Below, piece by piece: positions 8,323-15,567 of a DNA stretch of 64,000 nt. The DNA lies in NCBI RefSeq assembly GCF_001447785.1, contig NW_015166542.1, positions 85,267-149,266 on the forward strand, read 5' to 3'. The notes under the pieces are model-generated. The model was not told the DNA's origin, did not search any database, and worked only from the letters and a program-made list of their open reading frames with translations. How positions within the stretch are numbered: position 1 is the stretch's first letter; every line of letters starts with the position of its first letter. A program made the position numbers and the translations under genes. The stretch comes from Gekko japonicus (taxonomy: Eukaryota).

Positions 8323-8732
8323 ATGATGTAGTTAAAAGAAGCACATTGCTTTTGGCAGGCTGGGCCAGGGGCCTGCCAAAACTTAAAGCCTCAGAAAAGT
8401 GATAAACCCAAACAACATAAAGGCTTAGTGGCGGCTATTCCTTAGATGTGTACTTCCCTACCATTATTTGAGAGAGAAAAGGGCACTGAAAAGCACTACA
8501 CATACTAATTTTATCACTGCCAGAAGACAATAATGCAAGGAATAGTTAAGAACATAAGAGAAGCCCGTGTTGGATCAGGCCAGTGGCCCCTCCAGTCCAA
8601 CACTCTGTGTCACACAGCGGCCAAAAAGACCAGGTGCCATCAGGAGGTCCAGCAGTGGGGCCAGGACACTCGGAGCCCTCCCACTGTTAAGAACATAAGA
8701 GAAACCCATGTTGGATCAGGCCAATGGCCCCT

Positions 8733-9135
8733 TGTCAGACTTCCCACAGCATCAACGCAGTACACACTTGTAGAAAGGTTTTACTTTATTTGAAGCTATA
8801 GGTGCGTGGACAAAACCACTGTTCAGAATGAAGGGTGAGCAAAGGGCATGGCATGTTATAGTACATTCAAACTACTGAGGCCCAATTGCGGGGTTTCCCC
8901 CGCGCGCCATCGGGCCTGGGAGCAAACGCTTCTAGGCAGCATATGTTATCTCTTTCTCCCGGTGCTTCGTGAGAACCTCCAGCAACTAACAGCGGCAACC
9001 CCCTGTGGCCTTGAGCGATATAGACGTTTCGGCAGGCTAAGCAATTATGCGCATCAACAGTTCTACATATGAAAGTGAAAGCAGACAAGCGCACACAAGG
9101 AAAGAATAAAACAAGAAATTGGCAGCTTGCTGACA
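8733..9135 (-). repeat. 3' LTR of the Gypsy element (403 bp); polypurine tract GAGGGGGCAGTA adjacent at 9136-9147
   Basis: TGTCAG...CTGACA; direct repeat of 14780-15210. Confidence 0.95.
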
Positions 9136-9718
9136 TACTGCCCCCTCGAAAATCGACTTCCCACCATAATCCACCTATCTCCCGGTCAGCCCGGGAGATC
9201 TCCCGGTTAGTCCGGAAACTCCAGGTGGAATTTCTGAAGCAATTGAGGGGCCCGAATATCCCCTACTTCCACCCATTCGAGGTGCTGGGGTCCAAAGTCT
9301 TTCCATTCCACCAAATAGAACAGTTTTCCACGCTTCTTTTTCGAATCCAAGATCTGGGCAATTTCATAATGTTCATCCTCCTCGATCAAGATGGGCGGGG
9401 GTTTAGGTTTGGCTTCCCGCCACTGGCAAGAACCTGTGTCCTTTTTCAGAAGACTGAAATGAAATACAGAATGCAAAGACCTCAAATTTTTTGGTAATTC
9501 AACATCAACAGCAACATCATTGATCACCTTATGCACTTTAAAGGCAGGCTAAGCAATTATGCGCATCAACAGTTCTACATATGAAAGTGAAAGCAGACAA
9601 GCGCACACAAGGAAAGAATAAAACAAGAAATTGGCAGCTTGCTGACATACTGCCCCCTCGAAAATCGACTTCCCACCATAATCCACCTATCTCCCGGTCA
9701 GCCCGGGAGATCTCCCGG

Positions 9719-12700
9719 TTAGTCCGGAAACTCCAGGTGGAATTTCTGAAGCAATTGAGGGGCCCGAATATCCCCTACTTCCACCCATTCGAGGTGCTGG
9801 GGTCCAAAGTCTTTCCATTCCACCAAATAGAACAGTTTTCCACGCTTCTTTTTCGAATCCAAGATCTGGGCAATTTCATAATGTTCATCCTCCTCGATCA
9901 AGATGGGCGGGGGTTTAGGTTTGGCTTCCCGCCACTGGCAAGAACCTGTGTCCTTTTTCAGAAGACTGAAATGAAATACAGAATGCAAAGACCTCAAATT
10001 TTTTGGTAATTCAACATCAACAGCAACATCATTGATCACCTTATGCACTTTAAAAGGCCCGATGAATTTCCACCCCAATTTCCTGCTGGGCCGCAACATC
10101 TTAATGTTCTTGATGGAAATATACACAAAGTCCCCAGGCTGCAGAGCCCAACCCTCCACCCTTCTCTTGTCAGCCTGAGTCTTATACGCCTCTTTGGCCA
10201 CGTCCAAAGTCTTTTTCAAGAGAGGCCATGAGTCTTTCAGCTGTTTACACCATAAGCCAGCATCCACAGGTCCCAATTCCTTTTCCTCCTCCAGAAAAGG
10301 CAACGGTGGGCTGTCATAGCCATAAAGGGCTTTGAAAGGAGACAACCCAGTAGAAGTGTGGCATGCGTTGTTGTAGCAATACTCAGCTAGGGGCAATAAG
10401 TCATACCAGTCATCTTGCTGATAGTTTGTGAAGCACCTGAGATATTGTTCCAAAGTCTGATTGACTCTCTCCGTTTGTCCATCAGTTTCTGGGTGGTACG
10501 CACTGCTCAAGACCCTCTCCACCCCCAAAATCTTCATTAGTTCCCCCCCAAAACTTAGAAACAAATTGGGTTCCCCTGTCGGATATCACGGATAAAATCC
10601 ACATGCAGCAGAAAAGCCTTGGCCAATTCCTTGGCCATCGGTAAGGTAGGGAAGGGAAAGAAGTGGGCTTGTTTAGAAAAAAGATCCACTACCACCCAAA
10701 TGACAGTCATGGATTTGCTGGGCGGCAAATCCGTTATAAAATCCATAGAGATAACTTCCCACGGCCGATGTGGAGTGGGGAGGGGTCGCAACAATCCCGG
10801 GACCTTCCCGGGACGTGGTTTACTCATGGCACACACTTGACACGATTGAACAAACGCTGATAAGTCCTTGCGCATACATGGCCACCAGAATTGTCTCTGT
10901 AAAAGCTGAAGAGATTTCACAAAGCCGGAGTGGCCAGCTAGTTTGGCGCCATGAACGGAATGCATAACTTCCCCCCTTAGAGTAAGGGGAACATACAGTT
11001 TATTGTCACGATACCAACATCCATTTTCCCCTTGTGTGCAATCCCCCACCCCTGTCAGCACTTCTGTATCTGCTTCCGAAAAGGTGGAGATGAAGCGGCT
11101 GGCCCACTTCAAAGAGTCGGGGGGGGGTGTGAACGAGAGGCTGGGCTTGAGGCAAATTGGCTGCTTGCTGGCGAGTGATGACTGCTCCCCCCAGCTGGGT
11201 GGGAGTGAAAACTGAGTCCAGGATGACATATCGTTGACTGGCATGCTGGGGAAGGCGCGAGAGGGCGTCAGCTAGTGAGTTCGCTGAGCCCGGGAAATGA
11301 TGGAGGGTGGACTGAAACTTATAAAAGAAATCTGCCCACCGCAACTTTTGGCGTTCAAACATCGAGGCGTTTTGAGAGTCTCCAAGTTTTTGTGATCAGT
11401 CCAGACCTCGAAGGGCCCCCTCGCCCCCTCCAGCTAATGCCTCCACGTTGAAAGCGCCAGCTTGATAGCTCCCGCCTCCTTCTCCCATACAGACCAATGT
11501 CTCTCAGAATCAGTGATTTTTTTAGAGACGTAGGCAAGGGGGTGTAAGAGCTCATCGTCCCCCTCTTGCATAATGGCCTCCCCATGGCGATATCCAACAC
11601 ATCTGTTTGCACAATGCATTTTTTCTCCTCGTCTGGGTGTGCTAACACTGGCTCAGACATGAAGAGAGCTTTTAAGCGCATGAACGCCTCTTGGCATTCG
11701 TCCGTCCAAGGGAGCGGGGCGCTCGGCTTGGTGGCTTCCGGGCCCTTCCCCTTAGTTTTTAACAAGTCAGTGAGGGGAAGGCAGATTTGGGCGAAATTGG
11801 GCAAAAATGAACAATAAAAGTTTGAGAATCTGAGAAAGGATTGGAGTTGCCTCCTAATTCGAGGGGACTCCCACCCCAATACCGCTTGAACCTTCCCCGG
11901 GTCCATTTCCAGCCCTGCGTTAGAAATGTGGTAACCCAAGAAGTCAATGTGTGTCTTGTGAAATTTGCATTTGGATAGTTTGGCAAACAGTTCATGCTTG
12001 TGCAACGTTTTCAAGACGTCTCTCACCAATTTCACATGGGAGGGTAAGTCGGGGGAGTATAAAAGTATATCATCTAGGTAAACAAGCACCCCTTTAAACA
12101 GATGTTTATGTAACACCTCATTAATCGTTCATAAACACCCCCGGAGCCCCTTGAAGCCCGAAGGGCATCACTAGGTACTCAAACTGCTCCAAGGGTGTGT
12201 TAAAAGCGGTTTTCGGCTCATCGCCTTTCTTTATGCGCACACGGAAATAAGCATCCCATAAATCAAACTTCGAAAAGATTTTCTTTCGCCGCTTCTGCGA
12301 GTAAATCTTTAATCAATGGCATCGGGTAGGCATTTGTGGCTGAGACGGCATTCAAGCCTCAGTAATCCATACAAAGCCTCAGCCCACCGTCTTTTTCCAA
12401 AATAAAACAGGCGCTGTAAAAGGGGATGAGGCCGGCCGGATAAAGCCCCGAGCCAAGTTTTTGTCTATGAACTTTCTCAGTTTGTCTTTCTCGGCCGGCC
12501 CCATGGCGTATATTTTCCCTTTGGGTAGCTTAGCCCCTGGTACCAGCTCAATGCTACAGTGCAAGTGTCGATGGGGGGGGGGTAGTTCATCTGCTTCCTC
12601 CTCCCCGAACACTTTGGCTAGGTCTCGGTACTCAGTGGGGATGGATTGTAGCTCTTCTTGGGCAAGGAGGGCCATGGGTTTATCTGGGGGCGGTTTCTGG

Positions 12701-13119
12701 CCCCACTTCGCATCCCAACAATGGTCTTGGCATCTTGGCGAGATGAATTGGACCCTCCCTTACTCCCAAAGTATGTAGGGATCGTGCCCGTACAGCCCCG
12801 GGGCTCCGAGCACCACCGGGAAGCATGCTGCCAGGGTAATCACAAATGACCTAGACTCCCAGTGCTCTCCAGTCCCCATCAGTAATGGGACAGTCTCATA
12901 GATACATGGGTCTTTCATGGGGGACCCGTCCATTTGGGTGAAGATTAATGGCTCTTTCAACTTCACCACCCCCACCTCCAGTCCCGCCACCACTGAGGGG
13001 CTTATTAAGTCTCTCCTGCACCCCGAGTCTATGAGAGCTTTCGCTCTAACGTGAGTTCCAAGGGTCGGGTTAAGTATTGACACAGTCACAAGAAATAGGG
13101 AGGGGGATTCGCTCACCAC
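9719..13119 (-). pseudogene. Gypsy pol (PR-RT-RNaseH-IN-chromodomain), frameshifted
   Basis: ORF pieces 12760-13119, 12379-12675, 11355-12116, 10555-11244 and 9719-10564 carry the domains in Gypsy order. Confidence 0.92.
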
Positions 13120-13160
13120 TTTTGGCGCCTCATTGGGAGGGTCCTGCCGCTCTGCGCCTT

Positions 13161-14727
13161 CTACAGCAGCACCGAGTCATTTCCTGCCGGCTCCTGTTCC
13201 TCGCTGCTCAAGTCTCCCTCATCTTCTTCTGGCGACGCATGCAAAGCCTTGGCAAATTTTGGCTTCCATGTCGGTTTCTTCATTGGGGTGGCTGGATGGC
13301 TTTTGTCGGGCACTGCTTTCTCCCAATGGGCGGTTTGTCCACAGTCGGCCGCGAAATGACCCCTTTCCCCACATTTTAGACACAAACCTTGGCGCATCCG
13401 TTGCTCTCGCAGGGTGTTGGGTTGCCTCATTGTTTTGGGCTTCAGGAGAGGAGGGGTTGCTTCCCCCCCCCCGCCGCCGCTATGTCCAACTGCAAGGTTT
13501 GCAAGCGGTTCTCTGCACTCTCGGCTTCTTGCATCCAGGCCATCAGGGAAATCGGGTCCACTGATCGCAGTACCGTCTCTCTGATTTCCGCGTTCAGCCC
13601 GACCCGGTACATTTCTGCCAGGACGTTATCCGGCCAGTTGGGTAACTTGGCTGCGTGCAGCTTGAATTCTGCTGAGTACTCGCGGACCGTTCGCCGACCT
13701 TGTTCTAAGGTGCGCAAGTACGCTCATGCTCTTGGCCCCGCATTTTGGTCTTCAAACTGGGTTTGCAGCGCCCCCATGAAAGCAAACATATCTGTCAGTT
13801 CAGGGCCCCTGGCATTGTGAAGCCCCACGTACCAGGCTGCTGCTCCTGCTGCTCTGAGCCTCGCGGCCACCACATCAATGCAACTGCTGTCGTCTGGGAA
13901 CAGGTGGCCCGAGCGATCCACAAACTTCTGCACTCGCACGACGAAATACGCGAGTTCCTCCGGGTTTCCATCAAACGTCGCCTCAATCAGATCTTTAGGT
14001 CGGGGGTTTGCCTGGCCCCTAGGGCTGCCTGGTCTTGGCACCGGTGCTGGTAAATCTGGTGGTCTCGGAGCGGGGACTGGGAACGGTTGTACCGGTACCA
14101 CCGGCTGGGCGGGTAGCCCCGGCTGGGCTGGTACCCCTGGTCCCTGCAGTGGCTGGGCCCCTGGGGCCCCATCCGCCGGTCGCATCCACTCTAACGCCTC
14201 TTCAATTGTACGTGTGACCAGATCTGGGATGGCTTGGATCACTTCTTCCAAAGTTTGCTGTAACTGTTGCACGGTGCGCTCAGTCGTTGCAACCCGTTCC
14301 CGTAGCTCCTCATCCGGGGACGCCTGGCCACTCCTGGCCTTCGAACGATCCGTCACCCATGGCGGCACGATGGCCTCGAAGTGTCCTCCCAGGGGGTTAG
14401 ACCTGGGTCCGCTAAACCTCTGTCGTACAGACTGTCCCGCAAGGGCCCCCCCCAAGGTGCGAATACGACTCTCATGGCATCTGCGTCAAATTGACTCCAG
14501 CTATGACTGGGTCGGCTGTCGTACCCCTGTCTGTACTTTGGGCCTTGTGGAGTCAGGAACAAGGACGCCGTGGCTTTCTTCAGGATCGCCCCCCCACTCA
14601 GCACAGAGATCGGCGGCTGAGTAGGCACTGGCACCGACGCCGTAGTCTCCGGGGTTTCCTTCCCTGTGTCCGGCTCCTCAGGTTCCTTGTTGTCAGGAAT
14701 AATTGGGTTCCCCTCTCCGTCACTCAT
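13161..14727 (-). pseudogene. Gypsy gag (PEG10/sushi-like capsid and zinc knuckle), disrupted
   Basis: Pieces 14353-14727, 13724-14455 (FDGNPEEL), 13442-13717 (LEQGRRTVREYSAEF) and 13161-13430 (CCHC). Confidence 0.88.
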
Positions 14728-14779
14728 ATCGAGATCGATGGAGGTGCTGAGATAGGGAATGGAGGGATTCTGAACAGAA

Positions 14780-15210
14780 TGTCAGACTTCCCACAGCATC
14801 AATGCAGTACACACTTGTAGAAAGGTTTTACTTTATTTGAAGCTATAGGTGCGTGGACAAAACCACTGTTCAGAATGAAGGGTGAGCAAAGGGCATGGCA
14901 TGTTATAGTACATTCAAACTACTGAGGCCCAATTGCGGGGTTTCCCCCGCGTGCCATCGGGCCTGGGAGCAAACGCTTCAAGGCAGCATATGTTATCTCT
15001 TTCTCACGGTGCTTCGTGAGAGCCTCTAGCAACTAACAAGCAGCGGCAACCACTTGTGGCCTTGAGCGATATAGACGTTTCGGCAGGCTAAGCAATTATG
15101 CGCATCAACAGTTATACATATGAAAGTGAAAGCAAACAAGCGCACATAAGTGAAAGCAAACAAGCGCACATAAGGAAAGAATAAAACAAGAAATTGGCAG
15201 CTTGCTGACA
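14780..15210 (-). repeat. 5' LTR of the Gypsy element (431 bp)
   Basis: TGTCAG...CTGACA. Minus-strand TATAA at 14903-14907 and AATAAA at 14832-14837. Differs from the 3' LTR by about ten substitutions, a 24-bp duplication and a small indel (counted by eye). Confidence 0.95.
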
Positions 15211-15567
15211 CCCCTCCAGTCCAACACTCTGTGTCACACAGCGGCCAAAAAGACCAGGTGCCATCAGGAGGTACAGCAGTGGGGCTAGGACACTAGAAGC
15301 CCTCCCACTGTAAAGAACATAAGAGAAACCCATGTTGGATCAGGCCAATGGCCCCTCCAGTCCAACATTCTGTGTCACACAGCGGCCGAAAAGACCTGGT
15401 GCCACCAGGTGGTCCAGCAGTGGGGCTAGGACACTAGAAGCCCTCCCACTGTTAAGAACATAATAGAAGCCCATGTTGGATCAGGCCAATGGCCAATCCA
15501 ATCCAACACTCTGTGTCACACAGCGGCCACACTGTTTTATGACAGGATGTTTTGGAGGTCATTAATT

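What the first reader, a model, noticed from the sequence alone, without database searches (positions are those of the whole stretch)
14767..14907. tRNA-independent self-priming architecture in the Gypsy element
Seen: no TGG tRNA primer-binding site follows the 5' LTR. Instead the minus-strand 11-mer CTGTTCAGAAT (14777-14767), 2 nt from the LTR edge, is exactly complementary to ATTCTGAACAG in the LTR (14876-14866), which starts ~30 nt downstream of TATAA (14907-14903). Known: fission-yeast Tf1 primes reverse transcription with the first 11 nt of its own RNA, and this has been proposed for vertebrate Tf1/sushi elements. Inference: transcription starts at ~14876 and this reptile family self-primes.
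Basis: partly seen in the sequence, partly recalled or inferred. Interest (0 to 1): 0.7.

Follow-up and report, generated by a model that had tools for sequence, protein, structure and literature searches.

The report
Self-priming site in lizard-type chromovirus
A broken jumping gene in a lizard- or snake-type genome has no tRNA docking site; instead 11 bases just after its left repeat pair perfectly with 11 bases inside that repeat, and its relatives keep the pairing with different letters, so it likely starts copying itself from its own RNA, a trick proven in fission yeast and already proposed for this group in vertebrates.

Summary
The element (minus strand, 15210-8733, 5-bp TSD, chromodomain integrase) is a vertebrate chromovirus of the Tf1/sushi type. 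The 11-mer 2 nt after the 5' LTR is the only one of 5634 internal 11-mers with a perfect complement in that LTR. Across 52 distinct elements from the same genome, 99.1% of primer/PBS cells pair and 7 of 11 pairs change on both sides. On a 32-element tree, all 16 primer changes at those positions are mirrored in the PBS. None of 59 elements has TGG there. A TATA-like block at -31 to -27 and a YY|A initiator place the predicted start on the primer's first base, but RNA-seq did not map a start. The two flanking 'pretzel' helices of Tf1 are not demonstrated. Self-priming is published as a shared feature of the Tf1/sushi group, vertebrates included, so this is a new member of a known kind with unusually clean covariation. 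The scan noted the same layout before in moss and shark-like genomes.

The parts
8733..15210 (-). Whole Ty3/Gypsy chromovirus element, decayed (coding region broken into many frames)
   Evidence: LTR pair and TSD; Pfam domains; frames
14780..15210 (-). 5' LTR, 431 bp, TGTCAG...CTGACA
8733..9135 (-). 3' LTR, 403 bp; 11 mismatches in 403 aligned columns against the 5' LTR; carries the same 11-mer at 8829-8819
15211..15215 (.). Target-site duplication CCCCT (other copy 8728-8732)
14903..14907 (-). TATA-like box, -31 to -27 from the predicted start
   Evidence: sequence; 87-100% A/T at -31 to -27 across 58 elements
14866..14876 (-). Predicted self-primer: predicted first 11 nt of the transcript, in a YY|A initiator-like context
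   Evidence: covariation with the PBS; pyrimidine at -2 in 58 of 58, at -1 in 57 of 58, A at +1 in 53 of 58; start itself not mapped
14857..14859 (-). Conserved TGT at +18 to +20, possible partner of the LTR-terminal ACA (candidate flanking helix)
   Evidence: TGT in 50 of 54 short-R elements; predicted; little covariation
14832..14837 (-). AATAAA polyadenylation signal at +40 to +45, implying a short R region
14778..14779 (-). 2-nt spacer (TT) between LTR end and PBS
   Evidence: 2 nt in the 58 elements tallied: TT 32, TA 19, GA 5, AA 2 (the length was first seen as the match offset, then fixed for the tally)
14767..14777 (-). 11-nt primer-binding site complementary to the LTR 11-mer
14725..14727 (-). 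First ATG after the LTR, likely gag start, 53 nt downstream
13164..13625 (-). Gag piece with CCHC zinc knuckle
   Evidence: PF00098 E=2.7e-4, just over the cut-off
11358..12128 (-). RT and RNase H-linker piece
   Evidence: PF00078, PF17919
9722..11271 (-). Integrase pieces: zinc-binding domain, SH3_Tf2-1 and C-terminal chromodomain
   Evidence: PF17921, PF24626, PF00385
9136..9147 (-). Polypurine tract followed by a 2-nt TA spacer before the 3' LTR

Best explanation
This is a decayed vertebrate chromovirus (Tf1/sushi-type Ty3/Gypsy retrotransposon) whose 11-nt site after the 5' LTR is complementary to an 11-mer inside the LTR and covaries with it, and whose family likely primes reverse transcription from its own RNA. 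Steps: (1) inferred from promoter geometry: Pol II starts at 14876, 31 nt after the TATA start; (2) shown as conserved, compensated complementarity and predicted as a fold: RNA nt 1-11 pair with nt 100-110; (3) inferred from Tf1: RNase H cuts between nt 11 and 12 and frees a 3'-OH; (4) inferred: RT extends it across the 2-nt spacer and U5-R, so the cDNA end would carry two extra bases for integrase to trim; (5) inferred: plus-strand synthesis copies the retained primer into the new PBS, so a mutation in the primer is passed to the PBS, which would explain the tight covariation. This copy is likely dead.
For: Exact 11-bp complement, unique among 5634 internal 11-mers. Own family: 18 of 27 scored copies perfect, the other 9 with 10 Watson-Crick pairs; three primer/PBS types switch together; 0 of 20000 permutations as high. 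Window plus 32 other chromovirus elements (integrase identity 42-78%): best match 11 in 25, 10 in 7, 8 in 1, against 1 of 903 control 11-mers at 11 and 3 at 10. Alignment of 52 distinct rows: 99.1% paired, 7 of 11 pairs with both-sided change, slid controls 22-48%; RNAalifold finds this helix unprompted and no other. Tree of 32 elements: 16 of 16 primer changes at positions 2, 4-8 and 11 are matched in the PBS. TATA-like block and initiator in register with the primer. TGG in 0 of 59. Chromodomain integrase. Literature passages: self-priming is common to Tf1/sushi elements (bioRxiv 10.1101/2022.12.06.519325; PMC6317226); Tf1 uses its first 11 bases and RNase H cuts between 11 and 12 (PMC7175516); about 50% of Tf1 cDNA retains a reverse-transcribed PBS at its 3' end (PMC11042837).
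Against: No transcript start was mapped: two lays of RNA-seq listed no place where many molecules begin, and depth was as high in U3 as in R, as expected from read-through of scattered LTRs. The flanking helices that Tf1 needs are not more stable than shuffles (mean z -0.13 and -0.11; 3 and 2 of 58 below -1.64) and are absent from the RNAalifold consensus. No cleavage or cDNA evidence exists for any of these elements. The tRNA set tested was partial. A long-LTR lineage (L107, L124, L125, L134) pairs only 10 nt, and a TATA-like match was found in 2 of its 4 elements.
Confidence: 0.88

Rival explanations
1. The helix is real but structural (packaging, dimerisation or translation control); transcription starts elsewhere and priming uses another RNA.
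For: Covariation shows pairing, not priming. The start site is unmapped.
Against: The partner sits at a fixed 2 nt from the LTR end, where a primer must bind. The helix begins on the initiator A and rarely extends upstream (1 of 58). No other primer site is visible (TGG 0 of 59).
Confidence: 0.05
2. A host tRNA half or internal tRNA fragment primes at this site, as in some copia lineages, and the LTR 11-mer is an incidental copy.
For: Half-tRNA priming exists in Ty1/copia (PMC6317226 passage). The tRNA set tested held only 53 sequences with 15 anticodon labels, many probably tRNA-derived repeats.
Against: The PBS changes at 7 of 11 positions between families and always with the LTR 11-mer, which a fixed host RNA would not allow. 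The best tRNA match was 6 nt.
Confidence: 0.03
3. Self-priming in trans: the 11-nt primer comes from the second packaged genome or from short R-U5 transcripts of solo LTRs rather than from fold-back in the same molecule.
For: The flanking helices that would hold a cis fold are weak. LTR-only copies appear abundant (2119 first-look candidates for the LTR-containing query against 408 for the mostly internal one).
Against: Primer type tracks each element's own PBS even among subfamilies that share the genome. The cis fold is the predicted minimum-energy structure. Tf1's structure is described as formed by its own 5' UTR.
Confidence: 0.04

Closest known systems
Tf1/Tf2 of Schizosaccharomyces pombe (self-primed reverse transcription; seen through passages of PMC7175516, PMC4600332, PMC11042837 and bioRxiv 10.1101/2022.12.06.519325)
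   Same: 11-nt PBS complementary to the predicted first 11 nt of the RNA; no tRNA site; chromodomain integrase.
   Different: This element has a CCHC Gag, which the fission-yeast elements lack, and a 2-nt spacer at both cDNA ends, whereas Tf1's PBS appears to abut the LTR (inferred from the passages and recalled, not checked on the Tf1 sequence). The three-duplex 'pretzel' is not demonstrated here. Cleavage is proven for Tf1 and untested here.
[quoted passage not shown] 2001 (not held; known only through citing passages)
   Same: Vertebrate chromovirus with CCHC Gag and chromodomain; V-clade is reported from fish, amphibians and amniotes or sauropsids (PMC2774666 passages); self-priming was proposed for the group.
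   Different: No sushi-ichi or Amn reference sequence was available, so clade placement was not tested on a tree. I found no paper on squamate primer/PBS covariation in two searches (0 hits each), but the library lacks most subscription papers and Repbase.
Plant Tcn1-clade chromoviruses and TAR copia elements (PMC6317226 passages)
   Same: Self-priming predicted by the same criterion: a complement in the 5' LTR to at least 10 bp starting 0-5 bp after the LTR. This element meets it.
   Different: Different hosts; TAR is a Ty1/copia lineage.

Membership tests
Chromovirus (Ty3/Gypsy) | Ty3/Gypsy domain order (RT, RNase H, then integrase) between LTRs with TSD | tested here: met
Chromovirus (Ty3/Gypsy) | Chromodomain at the integrase C-terminus | tested here: met
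   PF00385, 29.2 bits against cut-off 25.1
Tf1/sushi group | PBS not complementary to a tRNA 3' end | tested here: met
   TGG in 0 of 59 elements within 8 nt of the LTR; best match 6 nt in a partial tRNA set
Tf1/sushi group | PBS complementary to a segment of the 5' LTR, kept by compensatory change | tested here: met
Tf1/sushi group | The complementary segment is the 5' end of the RNA | tested here: inconclusive
   TATA and initiator geometry agree; RNA-seq shows no start
Tf1/sushi group | Two further duplexes flanking the PBS ('pretzel') | tested here: inconclusive
   Energies not beyond shuffles. Hand-drawn helices pair in 77-92% of cells with weak covariation and were derived from the same sequences. 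TGT partner conserved in 50 of 54.
Tf1/sushi group | RNase H cleavage between nt 11 and 12 and priming from the freed end | not testable with these tools
   needs biochemistry
Tf1/sushi group (non-fission-yeast members) | Gag-Pol mostly joined by -1 frameshift | tested here: inconclusive
   The gag-end and protease frames overlap in a -1 relation near 13176-13164, but the copy has many breaks. A GGGAAAY search (motif recalled) found no hit in this copy and no common position in relatives.
V-clade (Amn/sushi) | Groups with sushi-ichi and Amn elements on an RT-integrase tree | not tested
   No reference sequence came from any call. Nearest named homologues are squamate, frog and fungal proteins, the integrase hits mostly chromodomain-bearing, which fits the Fungi/Vertebrates cluster.

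The most novel reading that the evidence does not exclude
Squamate chromoviruses use a streamlined form of self-priming: a fixed 11-bp primer helix set 2 nt off the LTR end with only a 3-4-bp helper helix instead of Tf1's full pretzel, and primer and PBS drift freely together because each round of reverse transcription rewrites the PBS from the primer. That would free these elements from host tRNA and from tRNA-fragment silencing, and give the first nucleotide-level covariation map of vertebrate self-priming.
Probability: 0.3. Interest if true: 0.5.

Novelty: new member of a known kind. Interest (0 to 1): 0.3.

Why it matters
Self-priming is proven in fission yeast and, in the passages I read, only predicted for vertebrate elements. 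Many related families in one genome here give strong comparative support: the primer and its binding site change letters together at 7 of 11 positions. It also predicts the transcription start to the base for a large repeat class and supplies natural variants for in-vitro tests. It does not reveal a new mechanism.

Tried and rejected
Chance match: rejected. RNA evidence for the start: the run search listed no indexed holder on record as RNA. Three raw RNA runs with the same species label (about 3-12% of each read) and one contig set were laid on the window's leader, and the three raw runs on a related element, L130. The libraries look unstranded, most reads run on into unrelated flanks, and no start was listed, so this is uninformative on the start site. 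Pretzel helices: duplex energies against dinucleotide shuffles and U3 windows gave no clear signal; the shuffles keep the G-rich/C-rich composition that may itself be the signal. tRNA test: only 30 of 59 Rfam tRNA loci were fetched, giving 53 distinct ARAGORN calls, 27 labelled Ala(ggc) and probably repeats, so it is a weak test. Primary papers were not held: Lin and Levin 1997 and 1998, Atwood-Moore 2006, Butler 2001, Esnault and Levin 2015. Rows left out: own family, 4 of 31 distinct junction loci (L049 and L056 lack the LTR, L059 has the LTR end deleted, L052 was missed by the pattern because of a GT spacer and by eye has 10 pairs plus 1 wobble); other families, 25 of 60 regions without a detected LTR pair, 3 more dropped (two with N gaps, one whose repeat is not the LTR), L147 (PBS broken off after 7 nt) kept in the match count but left out of the tree and alignment, and L146 plus the four long-LTR elements left out of alignment A1 because of length.

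Full report
Verdict. Interest 0.3, new member of a known kind.

The element. It lies on the minus strand from 15210 to 8733. The 5' LTR is 431 bp and the 3' LTR 403 bp, with 11 mismatches in 403 aligned columns and a CCCCT target-site duplication. The coding region is broken into many frames. Pfam finds a CCHC knuckle, RT, the RT/RNase H linker, the integrase zinc domain, SH3_Tf2-1 and a C-terminal chromodomain, so it is a chromovirus. The best named RT hits are snake proteins at 52-58% identity. The integrase search returned Anolis, Podarcis, frog and fungal proteins among its named hits.

The observation. After the LTR's terminal CA come TT and then the 11-mer at 14777-14767; its perfect complement is at 14876-14866. 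Of 5634 11-mers in the internal region, only this one has a perfect complement in the 5' LTR. An RNA starting at 14876 folds with this helix in both MFE and centroid, z = -3.71. TATAA is at -31 to -27, AATAAA at +40 to +45, and the first ATG is 53 nt after the LTR.

Own family. Two searches of the genome (best 40 scored, 30 fetched each) gave 31 distinct loci matching the leader, of which 27 were scored. Eighteen pair at all 11 positions and the other nine at 10, five of them with a G-U wobble and four with a mismatch (one of these is a 1-nt insertion in the PBS). Three primer types differ at positions 5 and 6, and the PBS switches with them. Permuting PBSs among copies gives a mean of 9.1 perfect pairs, maximum 16, 0 of 20000 reaching 18. 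Copies are related, so this number is not a probability.

Other families. I fetched 60 of 150 SH3_Tf2-1 hits with flanks. Thirty-five gave a repeat pair and 32 were usable, with integrase identity to the window of 42-78%. With the window, the best Watson-Crick match of the PBS to its own LTR was 11 in 25, 10 in 7 and 8 in 1 of 33; control 11-mers from further downstream reached 11 in 1 and 10 in 3 of 903. In an alignment of 53 sequences (52 distinct), 99.1% of cells pair, 7 of 11 pairs change on both sides, and slid controls pair 22-48%. RNAalifold predicts this helix and nothing else. On an integrase tree of 32 elements, parsimony counts 16 primer changes at positions 2, 4-8 and 11, and all coincide with a PBS change. 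Four long-LTR elements pair 10 nt only.

Start site. Aligned on the primer, 58 elements show 87-100% A/T at -31 to -27, a pyrimidine at -2 in 58 and at -1 in 57, and A at +1 in 53. That TATA boxes and YY|A initiators sit at these offsets is established knowledge, recalled. The helix extends upstream of +1 in only 1 of 58. RNA-seq did not test this: no start was listed in either lay, and most reads come from LTRs inside other transcripts.

tRNA. No element has TGG within 8 nt of the LTR (0 of 59), and a partial host tRNA set matched at most 6 nt. The stronger argument is that the PBS follows the LTR letter for letter.

Against a full Tf1 likeness. Tf1 needs two more duplexes beside the PBS. Here their energies do not beat shuffles. 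A TGT at +18 to +20 is conserved in 50 of 54 elements and could pair with the terminal ACA, but the ACA is conserved anyway for integrase, and covariation is slight. A 2-nt spacer lies at both cDNA ends; Tf1 appears to lack it at the PBS, which I infer from passages and recall.

Mechanism. Shown: position, complementarity and covariation. Inferred from Tf1: start at the primer, fold-back, RNase H cut between nt 11 and 12, extension (PMC7175516). Also inferred: the plus-strand PBS is copied from the primer, as for tRNA primers of retroviruses (PMC7472051 figure legend) and as fits the retained PBS on Tf1 cDNA (PMC11042837). This would carry primer mutations into the PBS, so the covariation may reflect templating as well as selection. 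Either way it points to this 11-mer being the primer.

What is known. I saw passages only, from PMC6317226, bioRxiv 10.1101/2022.12.06.519325, PMC3601003, PMC4600332, PMC7175516, PMC2774666, PMC7472051 and PMC11042837. The first two state that self-priming is described for the Tf1/sushi group of fungi and vertebrates, and PMC2774666 places the vertebrate V-clade in amniotes. The primary papers were not held and no supplements were read; Butler et al. 2001 may already show the vertebrate layout. Two searches for a reptile-specific report returned nothing. Earlier notes of this scan record the same layout in moss and shark-like genomes; I did not check them.

Noticed in passing
window 9031-9542 and 9543-10054: An exact 512-bp tandem duplication covering the integrase end, chromodomain, polypurine tract and first ~105 bp of the 3' LTR; 100% identity inside an element whose LTRs differ by 2.7% suggests a recent duplication or an assembly artefact.
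   Followed up: partly
window 15151-15174 (approx., 5' LTR U3): A 24-bp tandem duplication present in the 5' LTR and absent from the 3' LTR.
   Followed up: no
window 8545-8732 and 15211-15500: The element is inserted in a tandem array of a 141-bp unit related to a dispersed repeat seen elsewhere in the window.
   Followed up: no
L107, L124, L125, L134 (5' LTRs): A divergent chromovirus lineage (42-45% integrase identity) with longer LTRs, a 10-bp rather than 11-bp primer match 232-315 nt before the LTR end and no AATAAA or ATTAAA between primer and LTR end. Its start and polyadenylation signals may differ.
   Followed up: partly
primer positions 3, 9 and 10 in all families: T3, C9 and A10 are the same in all 15 primer/PBS types tallied while other positions drift; they may be recognition elements for cleavage or initiation.
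   Followed up: no
L146 5' LTR: A 178-bp tandem duplication repeats the TATA, primer, poly(A) signal and U5 block, giving two primer copies.
   Followed up: no
L130:2457, 2459, 2565, 2567: RNA-seq reads of sister families show the primer variants at positions 2 and 4 and the matching PBS variants, on separate reads.
   Followed up: partly
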